From an uncultured Clostridia bacterium (GTDB lineage Bacteria; Bacillota; Clostridia; Christensenellales; UBA1242), in contig CAMSQA010000003.1 in NCBI GenBank assembly GCA_947062475.1, positions 31,990 through 95,989 on the forward strand: a DNA stretch of 64,000 nt, read 5' to 3'. The position numbers and the translations under genes were made by a program. Under the pieces are notes generated by a model. That model was not told where the DNA came from. It was given only the letters and a program-made list of their open reading frames with translations, and did not search any database. The first letter of the stretch is position 1. Every line of letters starts with the position of its first letter. Below are positions 8,877 through 37,226 of the stretch, in pieces.

Positions 8877-8989
8877 ATATTTTATTATAAGAAAAATAAA
8901 AACCTTGTCAAGAAAAAATGACATTTCTAAAATAAAAAAAGTCATTCAATTGCATTTTTGTTATGTTAAAATATATGCGAGGTAAAAAA

Positions 8990-9493
8990 ATGGAACAAAA
9001 ATTTCAATTTCATGGAAAAAGTTATGATTTCTCAGAGATGTGTATTGTTGTTGGCAAGGCTTTAGAAGAGAAGGTGAAAAGTTTCAAAGAGATGAAAGAA
9101 GTTCTTGTCAAATTGAAACAAGATTTAAGATTTTGCTCTATAAGCAAAGGATCTGATTCGCACGTTAAAGCGGTATTGAAAAAATATAATAGACTAATGG
9201 CACTTACTGATGAGCATGCAGTTGAGTCTATAAAAAAAATGAAAAAATGTTTATATACCGAAAATTATCCACTCATATTAGAGGGGATTGAAAAAGATTT
9301 AGACCGTCATAATGATATGCTTCTTACTCTTAACAGACATTTGCATAAATATATAATAGAAGTTGTTGACAAACGTATTGTTGAAGTGGCTTTAGAGCAT
9401 GACTTAATGATTATTGATATATCACTTAAAACTCTTGATATGCAAAAAGAATTTATCAGTGGCGAAGCTAAAGAATGTGAACATATAATGTAA
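8990..9493 (+). CDS. Hypothetical helical protein, paralog A
   Basis: GAGGT RBS + ATG 8990 (MEQKFQFHGKSYDF...). Paralogous to the 9589 gene, including its upstream region. Confidence 0.65.
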   Translation: MEQKFQFHGKSYDFSEMCIVVGKALEEKVKSFKEMKEVLVKLKQDLRFCSISKGSDSHVKAVLKKYNRLMALTDEHAVESIKKMKKCLYTENYPLILEGIEKDLDRHNDMLLTLNRHLHKYIIEVVDKRIVEVALEHDLMIIDISLKTLDMQKEFISGEAKECEHIM

Positions 9494-9588
9494 AAGTTTA
9501 GTAAAAAGATAAAAAGTGATATTTTTGAGACAAATAAAGTCACTCAAGGCTCTGCAAATTATGCTAAAATATTTGTGAGGTGAAAGCT

Positions 9589-10095
9589 ATGGCACAAAAA
9601 TTTAAATTCATCGGTGAAGAATATTCCAAAGAGGAACTTGCAAAAGTTCTCAAAGAGTCTTTGCTGTCAATGAAAAAAGATATTGATAAAAGACATAGTG
9701 TATATCTTGAAGCGAAAGAACTTTTAAAGGGTGGAGCAATTGTTGAAAACTCTTATGAGATAAATATGCTTTTGAATTTGAATAAAGAGCTGGCAGATTT
9801 TATAGCCAGCACTCACAAAAGAACTATTGAAAGATTGAAAGATGATATAAAAAATCATGATATCGCACATTTTGCAAAGATGGTAGAGAGAGATGTTGAA
9901 AAGCATCAAGAAACTCTTAGTATGCTTGATTTAAATATAGCAGATATATTAAATGAAGAAATCAATCAACAAATCCTTATGGCAACAATAAATAATGATA
10001 TGAATATTATGGAATTTGTTTTAGACAAACTTCAACTTCAAAATGAATTTGTTGATGAGCTTTCTTCTTCAAGAGAAGACGGAATGTCATTATAA
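9589..10095 (+). CDS. Hypothetical helical protein, paralog B
   Basis: GAGGTG RBS + ATG 9589 (MAQKFKFIGEEYSKEEL...). Same N-terminal pattern and similar length to 8990-9493. Confidence 0.65.
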   Translation: MAQKFKFIGEEYSKEELAKVLKESLLSMKKDIDKRHSVYLEAKELLKGGAIVENSYEINMLLNLNKELADFIASTHKRTIERLKDDIKNHDIAHFAKMVERDVEKHQETLSMLDLNIADILNEEINQQILMATINNDMNIMEFVLDKLQLQNEFVDELSSSREDGMSL

Positions 10096-11127: not shown

Positions 11128-12477
11128 ATGAAGTCATGCGAGCAATATATCTATTGTAACAATCTCTTTGAAAGAGGTGATAAAATTGGAGTTGGGTGCA
11201 GTGGAGGAAGTGATTCTATTGCACTGCTTCATTTTTTGTCAAAAAATCAGGATAAATTTGGCATTGAAGTTTCAGTAATTCATGTGGATCACAGCATTCG
11301 AGAAAATAGTGGAAACGATTGTGAGTTTGTCAGAGATTTTGCTGAAAAACTTGGTCTGCGATTTCATAGTTTTAAAATTGATGTGCCAAAACTTGCAAAA
11401 GAGGATAAAAAAAGTCTCGAAACTGCTGCAAGAGAGGCAAGAGCAAAGGTTTTCAATGCTCTTGTTGAACGCGGAGTGGTAAATAAAATTGCTCTAGCTC
11501 ATCATAAAAATGATCAAGCAGAGACTATTCTTATGCATCTTTTCAGAGGTTCTGGTCTTGCTGGTGCAAGAGGAATGGAATCTGTCAGTGGATATTTTAT
11601 CAGACCTATGCTTGATACAGGTAAGGATGAAATTTTAAAGTATATTAAAAAAAATAAACTTAGATTTGTCGATGATTACACAAACGTAGACAATGTTTAC
11701 AATCGCAATTATGTGCGTAATGTGATTATGCCAAACATTCTTTCTCGCTGGCCAAATGCAATTGATTCTATCGTAAATTTTGGTAGATCGGCAAGTGAGG
11801 ATGATGAATTTATAAACAGTCAAATTTATCAAGATGCGGTGATATTTGAAAAGGCAGTTGCAAAAATACCTACGTCATATTTTGTCTATTCATCTTCAAT
11901 TGTGTCGAGAATAATTTTTAAAGCGATGAAGGGGCTGGGAGTGAACAAAGATATTGAAAGAAGGCATATCTCACTTATCAGTAAACTTGCACTAAATGGC
12001 GATAATGGAAACAAACTTAATTTGCCATTTGGATTTTGTGCTGTCAAAGAATATGATTATATCACCATTCATACAGGGCACGCCGCTCCAAAGAAGGATA
12101 AAGAATTTCAGCGAGCATTTAGGAGCGGCGAATTTAATTTGGCAGGTTTTGGCAGGGTGATTATCAAAAAAGTGAAGAAGGAAAATGTCTTTCAAAGTGA
12201 TGAAAACACTCTCTTCATTGATGGCGAGAAGTTGCCTAAAGGTGTAGTATGGCGTTTTAGACAAGAGGGTGATAAGTTTTGCAAGTTTGGCGGCGGAATG
12301 AAAAAATTAAAATGTTTTTTAATTGATAAAAAAGTGCCAGCAAGACTTAGAGATTTTATTCCTGTGCTTGCAAGTGAAGATGAGGTATTTGTCGTTGCTG
12401 GAATGGAAATTTCAGAAAAAATAAAGGTGACAGAAGATAGCAATAAAATTTATATGATAAAAGCTATACCTAGTTAA
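11128..12477 (+). CDS. tilS: tRNA(Ile)-lysidine synthase
   Basis: PP-loop GVGCSGGSDSIALLHFL, then IHVDHSIR and ALAHHKNDQAETILMHLFRGSGLAG. Length is typical for TilS. Confidence 0.92.
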   Translation: MKSCEQYIYCNNLFERGDKIGVGCSGGSDSIALLHFLSKNQDKFGIEVSVIHVDHSIRENSGNDCEFVRDFAEKLGLRFHSFKIDVPKLAKEDKKSLETAAREARAKVFNALVERGVVNKIALAHHKNDQAETILMHLFRGSGLAGARGMESVSGYFIRPMLDTGKDEILKYIKKNKLRFVDDYTNVDNVYNRNYVRNVIMPNILSRWPNAIDSIVNFGRSASEDDEFINSQIYQDAVIFEKAVAKIPTSYFVYSSSIVSRIIFKAMKGLGVNKDIERRHISLISKLALNGDNGNKLNLPFGFCAVKEYDYITIHTGHAAPKKDKEFQRAFRSGEFNLAGFGRVIIKKVKKENVFQSDENTLFIDGEKLPKGVVWRFRQEGDKFCKFGGGMKKLKCFLIDKKVPARLRDFIPVLASEDEVFVVAGMEISEKIKVTEDSNKIYMIKAIPS

Positions 12478-12548
12478 AAATTAATTTTATATAATTGTTT
12501 ATATAAGAATTAATTGAATAATCATAAAATTTTTATGACAACTTTAAA

Positions 12549-12582
12549 TGCAGGCGGAATAATTCAATTCGCTTGCATTTTT
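12549..12582 (+). terminator. tilS rho-independent terminator
   Basis: TGCAGGCG (12549-12556) pairs with CGCTTGCA (12570-12577), followed by TTTTT. Confidence 0.7.
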
Positions 12583-12601
12583 GTCTTATATATTGTATAA
12601 T
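12573..12601 (+). promoter_or_regulatory. Sigma-A promoter driving the large ncRNA
   Basis: TTGCAT (12573-12578), 17-nt spacer ending in TG, TATAAT (12596-12601). The predicted TSS at about 12608-12610 coincides with the 5' strand of the closing helix. Confidence 0.7.
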
Positions 12602-12609
12602 CTATTTAT

Positions 12610-13206
12610 AGAAGGTGCAGTATTCTAGTCAGAAAGTTGACTTAGGAAGGTGAAGTAATAGCACCGAAGGGCATATCTGTGAAGTTTCTGGTGCTGGCTT
12701 TGGTTGCCCAAACTGGGGCTGGTGCTGGAAGTTAAGAAATTTGGGCGAGCTGTAATGGCATACAGAAGCCGACCCATTTTTCGTGGAGACCTAGTTTAGG
12801 TGGATGTCAAATCATCTACTTTCTAGGAAGAACCTGCATTGCGATAAAAGTTGTGTGCAGTGTAGCCTGCTTTGAGTGAGTGGTAAGGGATATGGCGTAA
12901 ATGATATAGTTTGTAAAGCGCTTATCAAAGGATATCATTGTCATTGAAATTTCACTTGCAAAACAAGCTAATAAGTCTTCTGCCTGTCAAGGAAAACTTC
13001 TAGACTGTTGCTTATGCAGATACATTGAGGATTATAGTGCGACCTAAGTGGCGATTCGGTGTTATGTCTTGCTTAAAAGGAAACTGCTTAATCGGTGACG
13101 ATGAGTGCGAGAATGGGAAATCCGACCGAACCTATGGCGCAAGGTTTACTCAGTAGATTGCCTTCTAAAAAGGGGAAAGGATAATAAGTCGCTTCCTCTT
13201 TTTTTA
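12610..13206 (+). ncRNA. Large (~560-nt core, ~600 nt with terminator) highly structured ncRNA; OLE/ROOL size class, family unresolved
   Basis: It has its own promoter and terminator (stem 13171-13199 + T7), no credible ORF, and visibly higher G+C than the flanks. Closing helix 12610-12617:13159-13166. Nested hairpin CCTAG/CTAGG (12790-94:12823-27) with GTGGATG/CATCTAC (12800-06:12813-19). Perfect 8-bp AATGATAT/ATATCATT (12900-07:12932-39). CTGTA/TACAG (12750-54:12761-65). GNRA hairpin ATCG-GTGA-CGAT (13091-13102). Long-range TTCGGT/ACCGAA (13055-60:13125-30). Confidence 0.75.
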
Positions 13207-13346
13207 AACTTTTTGGCAGTTTTTTATTCATTTTTTATTGATTTTTATATGTTATATTTAAATTTATTTTTTTATTTTTTGTCTTTGATAAAATCTTATC
13301 TTTAAATTTGAGATTTCTTAATATTTTAAATATTTTAAATTAGACC

Positions 13347-13373
13347 TTGACAATTCCCCCCCCCATGTATAAT
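13347..13373 (+). promoter_or_regulatory. Promoter with a C9 homopolymer in the spacer (phase-variation candidate)
   Basis: TTGACA (13347-13352), 15-nt spacer ATT-C9-ATG, TATAAT (13368-13373). Homologous to the promoter at 27156-27182. Confidence 0.6.
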
Positions 13374-13401: not shown

Positions 13402-14409
13402 ATGGGAAGAATAAGAGATTGGTTTGAAGAAGAAAATGGATTTTGTAAAATGGTATTTGGCGGAATTGCATCGGTCGTATTTGCAGGTGTTTTTACTTTT
13501 GTTTCTTGTGTTACCAATGGTATTGTTTCAACTAAATATTTAAGCAAAACAAAAAAAGATTTAGAAGAAAAAAGGGTTGTTTTGCAAGAAAATATTGCAA
13601 GTTATGTGAAAGATATCAATGATTTTGAGCTTGCATCTGTAGAACTTCTTCACAACAATGAAAATTATATTTGCAAAGCTTTTGGTAGGACTGGAATAAA
13701 ATCAGTGCTGGGACTTGAAGAAGATAAATATGTCAACATTTTTTTCAATATTTCACAAGATAAAGCTCAAACAATTTTGGATAAAATCGAAGCCTTTGAT
13801 AAGACAGGGCGAATGAAGAAAAATGATAGCCCAGAAAATTCTTTAGTAATTAAAGGCGGAATAAAATGTATAGATTTATCAGTAAAAGGTAAATTGAAAA
13901 AGTCAGTTGATGCTTGCATGCAGGTGTTTGATGCTATAGACAATGCTGTCAAGAATGCTTATGAATATAAAATTGAAGAAATTGCAAATTCAAAACAGTT
14001 TAATGAAAAATTGGCAAAAGATTATAGATATGTAAAAAATGAAATTTCAACAAGAGTCGATGGTCTCTTCGTCCATTCAAAATTTGTAAATAGTGGAATT
14101 ATGACAACAGGAATTTCAAGCGTAGCGAGAAATGAAGAAACAAATGAGAGCTATTTTTATGTTGACACACTTCAAGCAATCGCAAATGGAAAGCCTGGTG
14201 AAAAATTTGATAAATTCAAACTTGAGACCTGCAGAACAATGGTTGTTGTAGATGGTGCAAACCTTACAGATGAAGAGGTTTATGCAAAGTTTATCAGAGG
14301 TGAGCATAAGGAATTTCTTGAGCTTGTCAGAAATACAAATAGTGAAAAAGTAGGTATTTTTAATGGCAAAGTTGAAGAAGATGTTGAAGAAATCGAATTT
14401 TTGTTTTAA
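13402..14409 (+). CDS. Hypothetical membrane-anchored or possible lipoprotein
   Basis: GGAGGTG RBS. N-terminal hydrophobic segment MVFGGIASVVFAGVFTFVSC with a lipobox-like FVSC. The rest is soluble, with no family recognised. Confidence 0.6.
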   Translation: MGRIRDWFEEENGFCKMVFGGIASVVFAGVFTFVSCVTNGIVSTKYLSKTKKDLEEKRVVLQENIASYVKDINDFELASVELLHNNENYICKAFGRTGIKSVLGLEEDKYVNIFFNISQDKAQTILDKIEAFDKTGRMKKNDSPENSLVIKGGIKCIDLSVKGKLKKSVDACMQVFDAIDNAVKNAYEYKIEEIANSKQFNEKLAKDYRYVKNEISTRVDGLFVHSKFVNSGIMTTGISSVARNEETNESYFYVDTLQAIANGKPGEKFDKFKLETCRTMVVVDGANLTDEEVYAKFIRGEHKEFLELVRNTNSEKVGIFNGKVEEDVEEIEFLF

Positions 14410-14441: not shown

Positions 14442-14471
14442 AAAAAAACGTGGAAAAATCCATGTTTTTTT
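14442..14471 (+). terminator. Rho-independent terminator
   Basis: AACGTGGA (14447-14454) pairs with TCCATGTT (14459-14466), flanked by an A-run and a T-run. Confidence 0.7.
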
Positions 14472-14687
14472 GTTAATTGTGAAAAATAAAGAAAAAAATA
14501 ATATTTCACAGTAAAAAATTGAAAAAATATCAAATAAATAGCAAAAAAAATAAAAATTGACAAAAAAATAAAAATAATAATTATTCAAACTGCAAAAATA
14601 ATAAAAATTAATTATAAAAAAATCAATCAAAAAATTATTAAATTTAATATAATTTATGATATAATATTTTAAAGGAGTTTTATTTTT

Positions 14688-16481
14688 ATGGAAAGCAAAA
14701 AGGCAAAGAAGGCAAAACCGTCAAAATTTGCTATTTGGTGGAAATGGCCTCTTATTGTGCTTGCATTGTCATTTTCGTTGTCGCTTGCATTTGGTGTGCT
14801 AAGTCAAGTTGCCCTCACAGGAGCTGGTATTGCGATAAGTGTGGCTGTCATTTTGATTTTTATTGCAATCTCAATTGTGGCTGACATGGTCGGGGTTGCA
14901 ATTACGGCAACAAGTTTTGAGCCCTTTCGAGCAATGGCGTCAAGAAAGATAAGAGGGGCAAAGGAAGCAATCAAACTTATTCATAATAAAGAAAAAGTTG
15001 CAAGTGTTTCTGCCGATGTTATTGGCGATATATGTGGAATTTTGTCAGGTGCAGCAGGGGCGTCAATTACCGTTGTTTTTATTGTGAATTATGCTGGCAC
15101 ATTTTGGGAAGTGCTTATTGCATCAATGGTTTCTGCTGTGATTGCCGCACTCACTATATTTGGCAAGGCATATTGCAAAAAATATTCAATTGTCCACTCT
15201 GAGAAAATCATCTTAATTCTTGGCAAGTTTATAAGCCTTTTTCATATTCAGAGGAAAGGCAAAGAGGTAGGCGATAAAAAGAAGAAGGACGACAAAAATT
15301 TACAGCTTGAAAAGAGTGAGATAGGAAATAATATTAAGCTTATTAAACCAGATTTTGAAAACAATATTATAAATGTTTCAGCTTCTTTAGCAAAATTTCT
15401 TAATTGTGGAAATAAAAATGCAACTTTAAAAATACTTGACGAGAAATTTAAGAAAAATTATAAAAATATTATTTTTATAGTCTTTGATGGAATGGGGAAA
15501 AATCCTATTGAAGTCAACTTGGGCGAAGATACTCTTTTGAGGAAAAGTATTGTAAAAGAACTCACTTCGGTTTTCCCTGCAACCACGACAAATGCTGCTA
15601 CAACTTTGCTTACAAACAGTTTTCCACTTGAGCATGGCGTGTTTGATTGGTCGATTAATTTTGAAGAAATTGGTAAAAATGTTGATGTTTATCTTTCATC
15701 AGATTCTCAAACGGGTGAAAAAATCAATTGTAAATTTTTAGAAAACAGGTTGCCAGTTGTCCCTTTTTACAAGGATGCAAAAACCGATTATAAGATAAGC
15801 AATGTTGTCCCTTCCTATTGGCATGATGGAATAGAAAAAAATAGGCATGAATGTTTTGACCTTAAACAATATTTTCAAGAAATAAAACAAATTTGTGAAG
15901 ATGAAGGCAAACAGTTTGTCTATTGCTATTGCCCAGAACCTGATGCGACCATGCATAAATATGGTGTTTCATCAAAAGAGGCAAAAACTCTTTTAAATGA
16001 TATCAACAAAGAAATTGAAAATTTGGTTGAAAGTTGTAAAGATACACTTTTTGTCATAATTGCCGATCATGGTCAGATTGATGTTGAAGGCTATATTGAA
16101 ATATATAAAAATAAAAAACTTTACTCTCTTTTAAGTTGCCCTCCATATTTAGAGTCTAGAGCAACTGCATTCAAGGTGAAAAAGGGGAAAGAAAAGCAAT
16201 TTGAAAAACTTTTCATAAAAAATTATGGTGAAGATTTTGACCTTCACGCAAGTGCAAAGCTTATTGAGGATGGTTATTTTGGTGACCCAGCAACTCAGAA
16301 ACATAGAAAACTTTTGGGTGATTTTGTGGCAATATGCAAAAATCATAAACAACTTGTTTTGTCAAAAGATTCAAATAGATTTAAAGGTCATCATTGCTCA
16401 CTTACAGAAGAAATGATTGTGCCACTTATAATTATTGAAAAAAGTAATTTCACGTCAAGTATTGACATTCAGACACTTTAA
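14688..16481 (+). CDS. Membrane-anchored alkaline phosphatase / nucleotide pyrophosphatase superfamily protein
   Basis: N-terminal multi-TM domain of about 190 aa. The C-terminal domain has FIVFDGMG...TSVFPATTTNAATTLLT...EHGV and IIADHGQ, matching metal- and nucleophile-site motifs of the type I phosphodiesterase / AP family. Confidence 0.65.
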   Translation: MESKKAKKAKPSKFAIWWKWPLIVLALSFSLSLAFGVLSQVALTGAGIAISVAVILIFIAISIVADMVGVAITATSFEPFRAMASRKIRGAKEAIKLIHNKEKVASVSADVIGDICGILSGAAGASITVVFIVNYAGTFWEVLIASMVSAVIAALTIFGKAYCKKYSIVHSEKIILILGKFISLFHIQRKGKEVGDKKKKDDKNLQLEKSEIGNNIKLIKPDFENNIINVSASLAKFLNCGNKNATLKILDEKFKKNYKNIIFIVFDGMGKNPIEVNLGEDTLLRKSIVKELTSVFPATTTNAATTLLTNSFPLEHGVFDWSINFEEIGKNVDVYLSSDSQTGEKINCKFLENRLPVVPFYKDAKTDYKISNVVPSYWHDGIEKNRHECFDLKQYFQEIKQICEDEGKQFVYCYCPEPDATMHKYGVSSKEAKTLLNDINKEIENLVESCKDTLFVIIADHGQIDVEGYIEIYKNKKLYSLLSCPPYLESRATAFKVKKGKEKQFEKLFIKNYGEDFDLHASAKLIEDGYFGDPATQKHRKLLGDFVAICKNHKQLVLSKDSNRFKGHHCSLTEEMIVPLIIIEKSNFTSSIDIQTL

Positions 16482-16511: not shown

Positions 16512-17411
16512 ATGAAGAAGAAAGATATTCAAGCAAAAATAGAAAAGTCAATATACTACTCTACAATGATATTTCATGATTTAAAAATGAATATTGAAAG
16601 ACAGGAAATAATAAAAGAAATTAAAGAAGAACAAAAAAAGAGTGAAATAATAAACTATTTTTTAAAGACAGAAGCTAAAAAGTTGCTTGAAAAGAATGAA
16701 AGATATAATAATGCTTACAAAGAGTTTCATCTTCTATGCAAGGCATATGGCATAAATAGAAGTGACTCGAAGAGTAGCCAAGAATATTTTGAAAACTATG
16801 TTTTCGCAACTGGTGGTAGATGGATTGACGACAAAGATTTGTTTTCTAATAATTTCTGGAATGGTTCAAATTCAATAAGTGCTAATATGGTTCGCAATTT
16901 TGCAGAAAGAGCTTATTATGCTGATAAGAGAGTCGCTGAATGGGAAATAAAAAAGGCAGAAATAGAAGCAATGCTTTCTAACACCAGCAAGGATAAAACA
17001 AAAGCGAAGCTGAAGAAAAAAATTAGTCAGGGCGAAGAAAAAATCAAAGACGATATAGAAATTGCTATGGCAAGAAGAGAGGCCATTAAACATTTTAATG
17101 AAGATAGATTATGTTTCCATAATGCTATTTTTCGTATGAGAGAATTAGAAGAGAATGCTGTTGCAGATGTAATCAAAGCCAATTTCAATAATCCAATTAT
17201 CGAAGATTTAAAAAATGATAGAACAAAATTTAACAGTGGAAGATTTCATCAATATGGAAAAGATATTATCAAAAAGATGCCTGAGAAATTATCTTCAGAA
17301 AATATTGAAAACAATGAATTTGACCCCAAAGTTTATTTGGAAGAACTTATAAATAAAGTAAACAATGAAAATACTAAAACCAATGAATCAGATGAAGAAA
17401 TAGAAATGTAA
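16512..17411 (+). CDS. Hypothetical protein (charged, helical)
   Basis: GGAGAG RBS. Long ORF with no family recognised. Confidence 0.5.
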   Translation: MKKKDIQAKIEKSIYYSTMIFHDLKMNIERQEIIKEIKEEQKKSEIINYFLKTEAKKLLEKNERYNNAYKEFHLLCKAYGINRSDSKSSQEYFENYVFATGGRWIDDKDLFSNNFWNGSNSISANMVRNFAERAYYADKRVAEWEIKKAEIEAMLSNTSKDKTKAKLKKKISQGEEKIKDDIEIAMARREAIKHFNEDRLCFHNAIFRMRELEENAVADVIKANFNNPIIEDLKNDRTKFNSGRFHQYGKDIIKKMPEKLSSENIENNEFDPKVYLEELINKVNNENTKTNESDEEIEM

Positions 17412-17457
17412 GTTATACAAAATTAATATTACGACTTTGTTGTTTTTGAGGGTGTGA

Positions 17458-18036
17458 ATGATTAAAAGAAGGGAACTAAAAGAAAAAGCCAAAGCTCTTG
17501 AAAAAGAGGAAAAACAGGCTTTTGATGAAGAAGGTAGAGCCGTAATAAAGCTTACGGTGCTTGATGACAGCAGTTTTCTTTCGCCTTATGACGAGGATAA
17601 TGACATCTTAATAAGCGGTGAAACGGCTGCATTTTTGGAACATTCGACAAAGGCTATCCATTACAATCAAGAGTTGACATTGAAAATTTATAGCAATGTG
17701 ATTGATGACCGAGAAAAGGTGCTTTATGAAAAAGGGATTCGCAACTATTATGAAAATTCCTTTATAGCCCATCAGAAAGAGCTTAAAAATAATTTTTGGC
17801 TGACCATACTTCTTACTTTTATTGGGTTTATCTATTTCGCAGTGCTAATAGTTATATCATTTTTTGTGAATTATGATTTAATTTTGGAAGTGTTATCAAT
17901 TTTTGGTTGGGTGTTTTTGTGGGAGGCGGTTGACATTTTCTTCTTCGAGCGGCCTAAAATCAAGCATGCTCAGTTTCGTGCTTATGCTCTTATGAACGCA
18001 AAAATCAGTTATTTAAACCTTGACAAAAAATTGTAG
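17458..18036 (+). CDS. Hypothetical membrane protein (2 C-terminal TM)
   Basis: GAGGGTG RBS. Soluble N-terminal half, then two hydrophobic helices (WLTILLTFIGFIYFAVLIVISFF / VLSIFGWVFLWEAV). Confidence 0.55.
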   Translation: MIKRRELKEKAKALEKEEKQAFDEEGRAVIKLTVLDDSSFLSPYDEDNDILISGETAAFLEHSTKAIHYNQELTLKIYSNVIDDREKVLYEKGIRNYYENSFIAHQKELKNNFWLTILLTFIGFIYFAVLIVISFFVNYDLILEVLSIFGWVFLWEAVDIFFFERPKIKHAQFRAYALMNAKISYLNLDKKL

Positions 18037-27053: not shown

Positions 27054-27155
27054 AACCATCTGCATTAACCTATGCAAACGATACAAGCAACGAAAGGCAA
27101 TATATAAAACCGGAGAATTATTAAAAAAAGTTTTATGTATTTTATAGAAAAATGT

Positions 27156-27182
27156 TTGACAAAATTCGGGGGGGGGTAGAAT
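27156..27182 (+). promoter_or_regulatory. Promoter with a G9 homopolymer in the spacer (phase-variation candidate)
   Basis: TTGACA (27156-27161), 15-nt spacer AAATTC-G9, TAGAAT (27177-27182). The flanks are homologous to the 13347-13373 promoter. Confidence 0.6.
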
Positions 27183-27233
27183 AGAGTAAGGAATGAATTG
27201 TTTTAATCATTACAATTATTAAAAGGGGAAGTT

Positions 27234-36111: not shown

Positions 36112-36618
36112 TTAAATAATTTTGCAAATTAAACAAGCGACAACTGACCCTACTACTGTGGCAATCAGTGCGATAGGAATTGCATACAAAAGACGTTTGA
36201 CTTTTGTTTGTGATGTGTAAACCGCAGTCACATAAAAGATTGTTTCACTGCAGCCTAATATCACACAAGCACATCGTGAAATATAACTATCCGCCCCATA
36301 TTCTATAAGCACATCATTTAAAAGTGCAAAACTGCCTGAGCCTGTGAAAGGTCGAAGCAAAACAAGTTCAATAAGCTGGCTTGGGACACCAAGAAATGTA
36401 AAAATAGGCGAAAAAAATTTGGCAAGAAGTATTGTTATTCCACTTACACGCAAAAGTGCAACCGCAATCATTATTGTCGCGATATATGGAAAGATATCAA
36501 TTACAAGAGGAATTGCTTTTTTCCCGCCTTTGACAAAGGTAGAATAAGTATTGATTTTTTTATATTTTGAATAACAAAAGAGGGCTACAAAGATGATGGG
36601 AAGAATATATGCACTCAT
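36112..36618 (-). CDS. spmB: Spore maturation protein B-like (nucleoside recognition domain membrane protein)
   Basis: Polytopic membrane protein. 4-nt overlap with the upstream spmA-like gene. SpmB-size, with a typical pattern. Confidence 0.7.
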   Translation of the reverse strand: MSAYILPIIFVALFCYSKYKKINTYSTFVKGGKKAIPLVIDIFPYIATIMIAVALLRVSGITILLAKFFSPIFTFLGVPSQLIELVLLRPFTGSGSFALLNDVLIEYGADSYISRCACVILGCSETIFYVTAVYTSQTKVKRLLYAIPIALIATVVGSVVACLICKII

Positions 36619-37226
36619 TTTCTTCCTCCATTATTTTTTATTCTAATAGCTGTTTTTTTATGTTTCAGTTTTTCTCTTATTCTTCCGCAGATTTTTACTA
36701 AAAAAACGCCTACTATGCAGGTGCAAATTGTGGAGATAAGTGTGGGCAAAATGATATCAGCTGGCGTGGCAGAACCTGCACTTGCCCGCAAGCCTATAAT
36801 AGTAGAAGGAAGAAGTTGTATTGATGTTGCATTTAAGACAATAAGCATAATCACAGCATGGGTGGCAACTCCGCTACCGTCGTCCAGTCGTTTCATTGCA
36901 GCTATGCCCATTGGCGTGGCAGCATTGCCAAGTCCAAGCATATTTGCTGACATGTTGAGTGCAATCATTTTTTCGGTTTCTTCGTCATCGATTTTAAAAA
37001 GCCATTTGATTAGTGGATGTAGAAGTTTGGCAAGTTTTTGGCTTAATCCACTTTCTTCAACAATCTCCAAAATTCCAAGCCAGACCATATAAACACCGCA
37101 AAGCTCCACCGCAAGCTTAAGTGCGTCAGAAGAAGCACCAATCATCGTGCTGAGCATAAGCGAAGGATTGCTGAAAACCAAAAAACAAATTGATAAAACC
37201 ACCATTAGCAGCCAAATTAAATTCAT
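36615..37226 (-). CDS. spmA: Spore maturation protein A-like (nucleoside recognition domain membrane protein)
   Basis: MNLIWLLMVVLSI...GVYMVWLGILEIVEESGL...ALNMSANMLGLGNAATPMGI is typical of SpmA / Gate-domain proteins. Confidence 0.72.
   Translation of the reverse strand: MNLIWLLMVVLSICFLVFSNPSLMLSTMIGASSDALKLAVELCGVYMVWLGILEIVEESGLSQKLAKLLHPLIKWLFKIDDEETEKMIALNMSANMLGLGNAATPMGIAAMKRLDDGSGVATHAVIMLIVLNATSIQLLPSTIIGLRASAGSATPADIILPTLISTICTCIVGVFLVKICGRIREKLKHKKTAIRIKNNGGRK

What the first reader, a model, noticed from the sequence alone, without database searches (positions are those of the whole stretch)
12549..13206. Stand-alone ~600-nt highly structured RNA gene between tilS and a surface-protein gene
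The tilS terminator is followed directly by a good sigma-A promoter (TTGCAT-17-TATAAT). The predicted TSS coincides with the 5' strand of an 8-bp helix (12610-17) that pairs with 13159-66, just before an intrinsic terminator (13171-13206). The ~560 nt in between are visibly G+C richer than everything around them and have no credible ORF. They contain many local and long-range helices, including a nested 5+7-bp hairpin at 12790-12827, a perfect 8-bp helix 12900-07:12932-39, a GNRA-capped hairpin at 13091-13102 and the pairing 13055-60:13125-30. The size and the Firmicutes host fit the 'large ornate' ncRNA classes (OLE ~610 nt, ROOL ~580 nt). The usual OLE partner, a 4-TM oapA-like gene immediately downstream, is not evident. 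I cannot assign the family by eye; it may be a divergent member or a new class.
Basis: partly seen in the sequence, partly recalled or inferred. Interest (0 to 1): 0.8.

Follow-up and report, generated by a model that had tools for sequence, protein, structure and literature searches.

The report
OLE RNA gene, enzyme-fused OapA partner
The structured RNA is an ordinary member of the long-known OLE family of large bacterial non-coding RNAs; the only unusual point is that its membrane-protein partner OapA lies one gene further downstream and is fused to a phosphodiesterase-type enzyme domain.

Summary
Rfam's OLE model (RF01071) matches window 12596-13180 (+) end to end at 387.9 bits (threshold 50, E 2e-110). 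No other large-RNA family matches. In ten related OLE genes the named helices are 88.5% paired (35-49% in slid controls), with 19 pairs carrying compensatory changes. The -10 box is invariant. Every relative has a hairpin plus U-tract at the same 3' position. The RNA lacks the P13 hairpin, the main OapB site, like the published 'variant 1' OLE RNAs.

It is the second gene downstream (14688-16481). It has four TM helices, an invariant DxxxD motif and weak CNNM similarity, and its stand-alone homologs sit directly after OLE in other genomes. Here it is fused through a Lys-rich linker to an NPP-type phosphodiesterase domain with intact alkaline-phosphatase-superfamily core residues.

The fusion occurs in one narrow clade of uncultured gut Clostridia. 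In a sister species the two genes are adjacent but separate. I found no report of it in the literature I could search. The gene between ole and oapA is a variable insert with a C9 tract in its promoter. Verdict: known RNA, low interest; the fusion is a modest lead.

The parts
11128..12477 (+). tilS (tRNA-Ile lysidine synthetase), the upstream neighbour; the tilS-ole order is conserved in the close relatives
   Evidence: Pfam ATP_bind_3 5e-52 plus TilS_C 5e-12. tilS also precedes OLE in L001, L006 and L009.
12546..12582 (+). tilS intrinsic terminator hairpin (12546-58 : 12568-80) with a U-run; its 3' arm overlaps the -35 element of the OLE promoter
   Evidence: RNA fold -15.7 kcal/mol, z -5.55, 0 of 200 shuffles as stable.
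12573..12601 (+). ole promoter: -35 TTGCAT (12573-78, 3 of 6 to consensus), 17-nt spacer, -10 TATAAT (12596-12601)
   Evidence: Read from the sequence. The -10 is TATAAT in 9 of 10 homologous loci (TATACT in L020), with a TGn extension in 8 of 10. It falls below the scan tool's -35 threshold.
12596..13180 (+). OLE RNA (Rfam RF01071 match). The inferred transcript runs from about 12608-12610 to about 13206, and the core closed by the terminal helix is 12610-13166.
   Evidence: cmscan 387.9 bits, gathering 50, E 2e-110, model positions 1-616 of 616. Covariation on 10 homologs.
12610..12617 (+). 5' strand of the closing helix (AGAAGGUG), pairing with 13159-13166 (UGCCUUCU)
   Evidence: 100% paired in 10 sequences, with a GC->AU double change in L022 and L013 and UG->UA/CG changes at the neighbouring pair. 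These positions are unpaired in Rfam's structure line, but the consensus letters GUGGUG...CAcCAc are complementary.
13159..13166 (+). 3' strand of the closing helix
13055..13130 (+). P12.2-P14-P14.1-P15 region. P12.2 is 13055-60:13125-30. The P13 hairpin (19 model positions, the primary OapB site) is replaced by 1 nt after 13062. The P14.1 GUGA hairpin is 13091-13102.
   Evidence: cmscan alignment shows *[19]* in the model against *[1]* in the sequence. Stem assignments follow PMC7936274. All 10 relatives lack the insert.
13167..13206 (+). Intrinsic terminator of ole: hairpin 13167-13203 with a U-tract to 13206
   Evidence: -14.2 kcal/mol, z -1.97. A hairpin plus U-run occupies the same position in all 10 relatives with different stem sequences.
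13347..13373 (+). Promoter of the inserted gene: -35 TTGACA (13347-52), a 15-nt spacer containing a C9 tract (13356-64), and TG-TATAAT (13366-73). Probably phase-variable.
   Evidence: Sequence. Similar C8/C9/G10 tracts precede the inserted genes in L009 and L001.
13402..14409 (+). Variable insert between ole and oapA: a 335-aa protein with one N-terminal TM helix and no Pfam or NCBIfam family
   Evidence: It is 40-45% identical to three tandem paralogs at the same position in L009. It is absent in L006/L016 and replaced by a 1242-aa Flg_new protein in L001.
14657..14677 (+). Extended -10 (TGATATAAT, 14657-65) and RBS (AAAGGAG, 14671-77) of the oapA fusion gene. A hairpin plus T-run follows the preceding gene at 14446-14471.
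   Evidence: Pattern positions; consensus matches only, and the 14446-14471 hairpin was read by eye, not folded
14688..15257 (+). OapA domain (aa 1-190) of the 597-aa fusion protein: four TM helices, with the DxxxD motif D110-D114 at nt 15015-15029
   Evidence: TM prediction. AF2 helices. CNNM weak hit E 4e-4, and in 41 of 49 relatives. D110/G113/D114 are invariant in 49 sequences. Stand-alone homologs lie directly downstream of OLE in L011, L013, L017, L020 and L022.
15258..15344 (+). Lys-rich disordered linker (aa 191-219), variable in length among the fusion proteins
   Evidence: pLDDT below 50 for aa 194-215. Length variation in alignment A1.
15345..16481 (+). NPP-type phosphodiesterase / alkaline-phosphatase-superfamily domain (aa 220-597) of the fusion protein
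   Evidence: Pfam PF01663 1.2e-20, 74.9 bits against a cut-off of 23. D267, T299/T300, H316, D419, H423, D460, H461 and H569 are invariant in 68 homologs. Foldseek: ENPP5/6/4 and Xanthomonas NPP, probability 1.00, TM about 0.6.

Best explanation
Window 12596-13180 (+) is the gene for an OLE (ornate, large, extremophilic) RNA of the shortened 'variant 1' type. Shown here: it matches the OLE covariance model over its full length, its helices covary, it has no coding frame, and it is bracketed by a conserved -10 promoter element and a positionally conserved intrinsic terminator. It is therefore probably made as a discrete transcript of about 600 nt (about 12609 to 13206), closed by a 5'-3' terminal helix, and not cut out of a long operon transcript as reported for H. 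halodurans. Inferred from published work on other OLE RNAs: the RNA dimerises, is bound by the membrane protein OapA and tethered to the cell membrane, and the resulting ribonucleoprotein helps the cell cope with stresses such as alcohols, cold, excess Mg2+ and poor carbon sources. Shown here: it lacks the P13 hairpin, so it has no primary OapB docking site. Its OapA partner is encoded 1.5 kb downstream behind a variable inserted gene. In this lineage OapA is fused at its C-terminus to an NPP-type phosphodiesterase domain whose core metal-ligand and nucleophile residues are intact. Inferred: the C-terminus is cytoplasmic, by the positive-inside rule and because the stand-alone enzyme homologs have no signal peptide. 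The particle in this organism would then carry a phosphodiester- or pyrophosphate-cleaving enzyme at the membrane face, in the position where the related Mg2+ transporters MpfA/CorB carry their cytosolic CBS and CorC domains.
For: The OLE model matches at 387.9 bits against a gathering score of 50, E 2e-110, positions 1-616 of 616, and no other Rfam family matches the region. Homologous OLE genes score 371-418 bits in 10 distinct related loci (some fetched under two locus ids), all followed by an OapA homolog. The helices are 88.5% paired against 35-49% in slid controls, with 19 compensatory pairs. There is no conserved ORF or codon periodicity. The -10 is TATAAT in 9 of 10 relatives, and terminators are present at the same position in all ten. 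The P13 segment is absent, matching the variant 1 description in PMC11332333. For OapA: four TM helices, an invariant DxxxD motif, weak CNNM similarity in 41 of 49 relatives, and 760 homologs (the 120 listed are stand-alone, 179-280 aa), six of which were checked and lie downstream of OLE. For the enzyme domain: PF01663 at 74.9 bits, invariant core residues, and an NPP fold. The fusion is found in five protein clusters, in five species-level assemblies counting the window's own (window, L015, L016/L006, L019/L001 and P0005); P0004 alone lies on 44 contigs. The two genes are adjacent but unfused in L017/L018.
Against: Nothing argues against the OLE assignment. Several points are weaker. The -35 is poor (3 of 6), and the terminator z-score is modest (-2.0). 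The transcript ends are predicted, not measured. RNP formation, membrane localisation and stress function are extrapolated from H. halodurans and C. acetobutylicum. A functional coupling between the fused enzyme and OLE is not demonstrated. More distant stand-alone homologs of the enzyme (about 50-54% identity) are not near ole or oapA, and the closest relative by OapA sequence (L009/L021, 90% identity) has an unfused OapA with no such enzyme beside it. The fusion could therefore be a lineage-specific accident of gene adjacency.
Confidence: 0.95

Rival explanations
1. It is a new class of large structured RNA, or a member of another large ornate class (ROOL, GOLLD, HEARO, raiA), not OLE.
Against: The OLE model matches end to end at 387.9 bits. 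No other Rfam family reaches its gathering score anywhere in 12.4-13.4 kb; the window's only other hits are two tRNAs. The OLE-specific conserved blocks are invariant in the alignment.
Confidence: 0.01
2. It is a decaying or orphan OLE remnant that has lost its OapA partner. The literature mentions rare defective ole genes in organisms lacking OapA.
For: oapA is not in tandem with ole here, and the P13 hairpin is missing.
Against: All model positions are matched with high posterior probability. Ten orthologs keep the helices through compensatory changes and keep the promoter and terminator. An intact OapA domain with an invariant DxxxD motif is encoded 1.5 kb downstream. Loss of P13 is a described feature of functional variant-1 OLE RNAs.
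Confidence: 0.02
3. It is a long cis-acting 5' leader (riboswitch- or T-box-like) controlling the downstream 335-aa gene, not a trans-acting RNA.
For: It is on the same strand as the downstream gene and ends in a terminator-like hairpin, as attenuators do.
Against: About 200 nt of AT-rich spacer and a separate TTGACA/TATAAT promoter (13347-73) lie between the terminator and the gene. The downstream gene varies among relatives (absent, one or three paralogs, or a Flg_new protein) while the RNA is constant. The RNA belongs to a family known to act in trans as an RNP.
Confidence: 0.02
4. The region encodes one or more small proteins (for example the 50-aa ORF on the minus strand at 12625-12777, or the 66-aa ORF at 13105-13305).
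For: The mechanical ORF list contains these two ORFs.
Against: The longest open frames differ in strand, frame and position in every homolog. Substitutions are spread evenly over the three phases. The variation is compensatory in helices.
Confidence: 0.01

Closest known systems
OLE RNA, full-length type (Rfam RF01071; Halalkalibacterium halodurans, Clostridium acetobutylicum)
   Same: It has the same family-defining conserved sequence blocks and stem architecture, with a full-length model match at 388 bits. It co-occurs with OapA and has a Bacillota host.
   Different: It is shorter (about 557 nt between the closing-helix ends), several stems are trimmed, and the P13 hairpin (the primary OapB site) is absent. 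It has its own promoter and terminator, not an operon-embedded position. oapA is not in tandem with it.
OLE 'variant 1' (Fernando and Breaker 2024, PMC11332333; commonest in the TANB77 gut clade)
   Same: It has trimmed stems, lacks the OapB-binding nucleotides at P13, and comes from an uncultured, low-GC gut Clostridia host.
   Different: I could not confirm stem-by-stem identity with the published variant-1 consensus, because the figure is not held. I also could not confirm the GTDB order of the host. That paper excluded variant species from its protein analyses.
OapA (OLE-associated protein A, about 21 kDa, four TM helices)
   Same: The N-terminal 190 aa have four TM helices, a basic cytoplasmic loop, the DxxxD motif and weak CNNM homology, and the gene is linked to ole.
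   Different: Here it is the N-terminal third of a 597-aa protein carrying an NPP-type enzyme domain, and it lies one gene away from ole. Among the best 150 family representatives, only this clade has such a C-terminal extension.
MpfA / CorB / CNNM Mg2+ transporters
   Same: They have a related transmembrane domain followed by a cytosolic C-terminal module, so the overall layout (TM domain plus cytosolic domain) is the same.
   Different: Their cytosolic module is a CBS pair plus a CorC domain, not a phosphodiesterase. They lack DxxxD, and they anticorrelate with OLE.
Nucleotide pyrophosphatase/phosphodiesterases (ENPP4/5/6, Xanthomonas NPP; Pfam PF01663)
   Same: They share the fold (TM about 0.6) and the conserved positions of the two-metal site and Thr nucleophile.
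   Different: Identity is only 12-18%. This domain is predicted to be cytoplasmic, whereas NPPs are secreted or ecto-enzymes. The substrate is unknown. It belongs to a family of about 370-aa stand-alone proteins, several from Clostridia-labelled MAGs, that has no characterised member in the libraries searched.

Membership tests
OLE RNA (RF01071) | Covariance-model score above the curated gathering threshold over the whole model | tested here: met
   387.9 bits against 50; model 1-616 of 616; E 2e-110
OLE RNA (RF01071) | Conserved multi-stem secondary structure supported by covariation | tested here: met
   40 reader-named pairs are 88.5% paired against 35-49% in slid controls, with 19 compensatory pairs and 0 of 500 shuffles as high. 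Only a subset of the OLE stems was tested explicitly; the rest rests on the CM alignment.
OLE RNA (RF01071) | Co-occurrence with an oapA gene, normally immediately downstream | tested here: met
   An OapA domain is encoded at 14688-15257, 1.5 kb downstream. It is not in tandem, because one gene intervenes.
OLE RNA (RF01071) | Host in Bacillota, typically anaerobes or extremophiles | tested here: inconclusive
The nearest genomes are MAGs labelled uncultured Eubacteriales/Clostridia bacterium. The gene content (tilS, rpsF-ssb-rpsR, low GC) is consistent.
OLE RNA (RF01071) | Forms a membrane-localised RNP or RNA dimer | not testable with these tools
   Known only from experiments on other species (PMC12265935, PMC12286853)
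OLE full-length type | P13 hairpin with GNRA loop and bulged nucleotide (primary OapB site) | tested here: not met
   19 model positions are replaced by 1 nt, and the segment is absent in all 10 relatives. It is therefore filed as variant-1-like.
OapA | Four predicted transmembrane helices | tested here: met
   Hydropathy segments at aa 19, 41, 111 and 136; AF2 helical bundle over aa 13-185
OapA | DxxxD motif | tested here: met
   D110-V-I-G-D114; D110 and D114 are invariant in 49 homologs and in all 5 fusion proteins
OapA | Weak homology to the CNNM/DUF21 domain | tested here: met
   PF01595 E 4e-4 for this protein; 41 of 49 relatives hit, best 4.8e-9, all below or near the gathering score
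OapA | Gene linked to ole | tested here: met
   Homologs lie downstream of confirmed OLE genes in L011, L013, L015-L022 and L009
OapA | Direct sequence comparison with an experimentally studied OapA (H. halodurans BH2780 or C. botulinum CLB_RS09010) | not tested
   Neither reference sequence could be fetched with the tools used
OapA | Small stand-alone protein (about 21 kDa) | tested here: not met
   597 aa; the OapA part is aa 1-190, followed by a linker and a 378-aa enzyme domain
NPP / alkaline-phosphatase superfamily (PF01663) | Pfam score above the gathering threshold | tested here: met
   74.9 bits against 23, aa 281-569
NPP / alkaline-phosphatase superfamily (PF01663) | Conserved two-metal ligands and Thr/Ser nucleophile | tested here: met
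   D267, T299/T300, D419, H423, D460, H461 and H569 are invariant in 68 homologs. Assigning roles to these residues is by analogy with NPPs, not by superposition.
NPP / alkaline-phosphatase superfamily (PF01663) | NPP-like fold | tested here: met
   Foldseek top hits are ENPP5, ENPP6, ENPP4 and Xac NPP; E 1e-13 to 1e-11, TM (target) 0.57-0.65; model pLDDT is about 95-98 in this domain
ROOL, GOLLD, HEARO, raiA, RNase P, tmRNA, 6S, SRP | Rfam model score above the gathering threshold in 12.5-13.2 kb | tested here: not met
   The only hits in the 64-kb window are OLE and two tRNAs

The most novel reading that the evidence does not exclude
In one narrow clade of uncultured gut Clostridia, the essential OLE partner OapA has recruited an NPP-type phosphodiesterase. 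The two are adjacent genes in one species and a single polypeptide in five others. If this Rosetta-stone fusion reflects function, the OLE ribonucleoprotein works together with a membrane-proximal hydrolase of phosphodiester or pyrophosphate bonds, acting on nucleotides, signalling dinucleotides, lipid head groups or the RNA itself. That would give the first enzymatic handle on a particle whose biochemical function has been unknown since 2006. I found no mention of such a fusion in the OLE literature I could search.
Probability: 0.3. Interest if true: 0.6.

Novelty: already known. Interest (0 to 1): 0.25.

Why it matters
The RNA itself adds one more instance of a well-catalogued family; a 2024 survey already counted 2,822 OLE hits in Bacillota. 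Its value is as a clean example of a self-contained ole transcription unit of the P13-less type. The side finding has some value. OLE is one of the largest conserved bacterial RNAs without a known biochemical function, and OapA is its one indispensable partner. A natural OapA-enzyme fusion, with an adjacent-gene intermediate in a sister species, suggests a concrete and testable activity to look for near the particle. The link is confined to one small clade, so it may say nothing about OLE in general.

Tried and rejected
1. Other four-TM ORFs as OapA candidates (36112-36618 and 36615-37226, minus strand). These were rejected. They have no DxxxD-type OapA similarity, NCBIfam gave only a sub-threshold hit to an uncharacterised-protein model (PRK10519), and by size and synteny they correspond to the paired PF07670 'Gate' genes next to tatD/ksgA in L011.

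2. The 335-aa immediate neighbour as a cryptic OapA. Rejected: it has one TM helix and no family hit.

3. Exact look-up of the window's 597-aa protein in the contig index failed. Context was obtained from its homologs instead.

4. The profile of 49 OapA-like sequences against PDB sequences gave no hit even at E 10, so the CorB/CNNM relationship rests on Pfam only.

5. The first mixed alignment (A3) mis-aligned the N-termini of the stand-alone enzymes onto the OapA domain. Residue conservation was therefore recomputed on the domain-specific alignments A4 and A5. The AF2 model built from A3 was nevertheless confident.

6. I tested whether the enzyme is generally linked to ole. Stand-alone homologs in L023, L025, L026 and L029 have neither OLE (Rfam was run on L023, L025 and L026 only) nor OapA (tblastn) nearby. 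The 0.6-1 kb gaps upstream of two of them hold tRNA genes or nothing. L027 is cut 220 nt upstream and is uninformative.

7. The pattern-based promoter and terminator scan found neither the ole promoter nor the terminators, because of its thresholds. These were checked by folding and by conservation instead.

8. I could not verify from text alone whether the closing 5'-3' helix is labelled P1 in the published OLE model.
Full report
**Identity of the RNA.** A gathering-threshold scan of the whole window against Rfam 15 gives three hits. Two are tRNAs. The third is OLE (RF01071) at 12596-13180 on the + strand, at 387.9 bits against a gathering score of 50 and E 2e-110, covering model positions 1-616 of 616 with no truncation.

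**The observation itself.** The region is a G+C island, 41.7% against 25-33% on either side.

I collected nine homologous OLE genes from related metagenome-assembled genomes. With the duplicate locus copies included, they score 371-418 bits. I aligned them with the window sequence (alignment A2).

Nineteen pairs show changes on both sides, and none of 500 column shuffles reaches the observed values.

The 5'-3' closing helix (12610-17 with 13159-66) has 6 Watson-Crick plus 2 G-U pairs. It is paired in all ten sequences and carries a GC-to-AU double substitution in two of them. Rfam's structure line leaves those positions unpaired, although the consensus letters (GUGGUG ... CAcCAc) are complementary.

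No reading frame is conserved. The longest stop-free stretches change strand and frame from homolog to homolog, and substitutions fall evenly on the three phases (302/279/285).

**Ends of the gene.**
- The -10 hexamer TATAAT (12596-12601) is TATAAT in nine of the ten loci (TATACT in L020), and eight add a TGn extension.
- The -35 (TTGCAT) matches only 3 of 6, which is why the consensus scan did not list the site.
- The tilS terminator hairpin is strong (-15.7 kcal/mol, z -5.6). The hairpin after the RNA is moderate (-14.2 kcal/mol, z -2.0).
- All ten loci have a hairpin followed by a U-run beginning 8-10 nt after the closing helix, with unrelated stem sequences. That is the signature of a conserved terminator.

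I infer a discrete transcript from about 12609 to about 13206. In H. halodurans, by contrast, the ole cluster is reported to be transcribed as one polycistronic RNA (PMC12265935).

**Which kind of OLE.** In the model alignment, 19 consensus positions between the P12.2 strand and P14 are replaced by a single nucleotide. According to the OapB-OLE crystal-structure paper, that segment is the P13 hairpin with its GNRA loop and bulged U, the primary OapB-binding site. All ten relatives lack P13.

Trimmed stems and loss of the OapB site define the 'variant 1' OLE RNAs described by Fernando and Breaker. Variant 1 is commonest in the uncultured gut clade TANB77, which also largely lacks OapB and OapC (PMC11332333). 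The low G+C content (31.8%) and the labels of the nearest genomes ('uncultured Eubacteriales/Clostridia bacterium', several of them MGBC-prefixed isolates) fit that picture. I could not determine the GTDB order.

**The partner protein.** The literature states that ole and oapA 'almost always reside in tandem' (PMC9723947) and that OapA is the one indispensable partner. OapA is described as a four-TM protein, weakly homologous to the CNNM/DUF21 domain and distinguished by a DxxxD motif (PMC11332333).

The gene directly after ole (13402-14409) is not OapA. It encodes a 335-aa protein with one TM helix and no family assignment. The next gene (14688-16481, 597 aa) begins with four TM helices. It has a weak CNNM hit (E 4e-4) and contains D110-VIG-D114.

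Searched alone, its first 192 residues find 760 homologs; the 120 listed are all stand-alone proteins of about 180-280 aa. Those I looked up are encoded just downstream of confirmed OLE genes (L011, L013, L009), as are the OapA homologs found by the genome scan (L017, L020, L022). In 49 of these proteins D110, G113 and D114 are invariant, and 41 give the same weak CNNM hit. The domain therefore meets every sequence- and context-based criterion for OapA that I could test. RNA binding cannot be tested here.

**The fusion.** Residues 220-597 match Pfam PF01663 (type I phosphodiesterase/nucleotide pyrophosphatase) at 74.9 bits against a cut-off of 23. An AlphaFold2 model is confident: mean pLDDT 88.5, about 95-98 in this domain, with a disordered Lys-rich linker at 194-215. 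Foldseek places the domain with ENPP5, ENPP6, ENPP4 and Xanthomonas NPP at probability 1.00, TM about 0.6 and 12-18% identity.

In a clean alignment with 67 stand-alone homologs of about 370 aa, the positions expected for the two-metal site and the nucleophile are invariant: D267, T299/T300, D419, H423, D460, H461 and H569. The homologs start directly at the catalytic domain, with no signal peptide. The OapA N-terminus, the TM2-TM3 loop and the linker are all strongly basic. I therefore infer a cytoplasmic location for the enzyme domain.

**How widespread the fusion is.**
- The full-length architecture occurs in only five protein clusters, at 58-100% identity; one of them is seen on 44 contigs.
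- It is present in the species-level genomes L015, L016 and L019.
- In L017/L018 the order is OLE, then a separate oapA (269 aa), then a separate enzyme gene (377 aa). This is the adjacent-gene state expected for a Rosetta-stone pair.
- L009/L021, whose OapA is 90% identical to the window's, has an unfused OapA with no enzyme beside it.
- Stand-alone enzyme homologs at about 50-54% identity lie in unrelated contexts with neither OapA nor (where scanned, L023/L025/L026) OLE nearby.
- Among the 150 best representatives of 693 OapA-like clusters, only this clade (P0002 and a fragment, P0007) has a C-terminal enzyme extension.

The fusion is real but narrowly distributed, and its functional meaning is open. 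I found no mention of it in the indexed OLE papers.

**The variable slot between ole and oapA.** This position holds nothing in L006/L016, one gene here, three tandem paralogs (41-53% identical to each other, 40-45% to the window's) in L009, and a 1242-aa Flg_new surface protein in L001/L019.

The promoters of these inserts contain homopolymeric tracts: C9 here at 13356-64, between TTGACA and TATAAT with a 15-nt spacer; C8 and C9 in L009; G10 in L001. A similar G9 promoter sits at 27168-76. In a 32% G+C genome this is far from chance and suggests slipped-strand phase variation. This is a side observation, separate from the OLE question.

**Verdict.** The feature is a typical member of a family known since 2006, of an already described shortened subtype. 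The supposedly missing partner gene is present. Interest in the RNA as such is low. The enzyme-fused OapA is a modest lead that I could not find reported, and it is worth a systematic co-occurrence analysis and a simple enzymatic test.

Noticed in passing
window 13347-13373 and 27150-27190; L009 3651-3658 and 4990-4998; L001 4052-4061: Homopolymeric C or G tracts of 8-10 nt lie inside promoter spacers, between TTGACA and a TATAAT-like box. They sit upstream of membrane or surface protein genes, including every gene inserted between ole and oapA. In a 32% G+C genome this is far beyond chance and points to slipped-strand phase-variable promoters. The window's C9 promoter has a sub-optimal 15-nt spacer.
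   Followed up: partly
window 13402-14409; L009 3692-7493: A family of about 335-390-aa proteins has one N-terminal TM helix and no Pfam or NCBIfam match. It occupies the slot between ole and oapA, with one copy here and three tandem paralogs in L009 (40-53% identity). The slot is empty in L006 and holds a 1242-aa Flg_new surface protein in L001.
   Followed up: partly
L017 5032-8205 (also L018): In a sister species the order is OLE, then a separate oapA (269 aa), then a separate NPP-type enzyme gene (377 aa). This is the unfused, adjacent state of the two halves of the window's 597-aa protein.
   Followed up: yes
window 16512-18036; L009 8937-10550: Two further genes of unknown function (299 aa, and 192 aa with two TM helices) follow the oapA gene and precede rpsF-ssb-rpsR. 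They are conserved in L009 at 41% and 78% identity. They could be additional clade-specific members of the ole neighbourhood.
   Followed up: no
window 8963-10095: Two adjacent paralogous genes (176 and 171 aa, 22% identical, no family hit) lie upstream of tilS. Similarly sized unannotated genes occupy the same place in L006.
   Followed up: no
window 36112-37226 (minus strand): A pair of overlapping four-TM genes (168 and 203 aa) superficially resembles OapA in size and topology. By synteny with L011, they correspond to paired PF07670 'Gate' domain proteins next to tatD and ksgA.
   Followed up: partly
L029 4022-4684: The gene called in the public record contains an in-frame stop near its 3' end when translated with table 11. 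This is either a mis-called end or a different genetic code in that organism.
   Followed up: no
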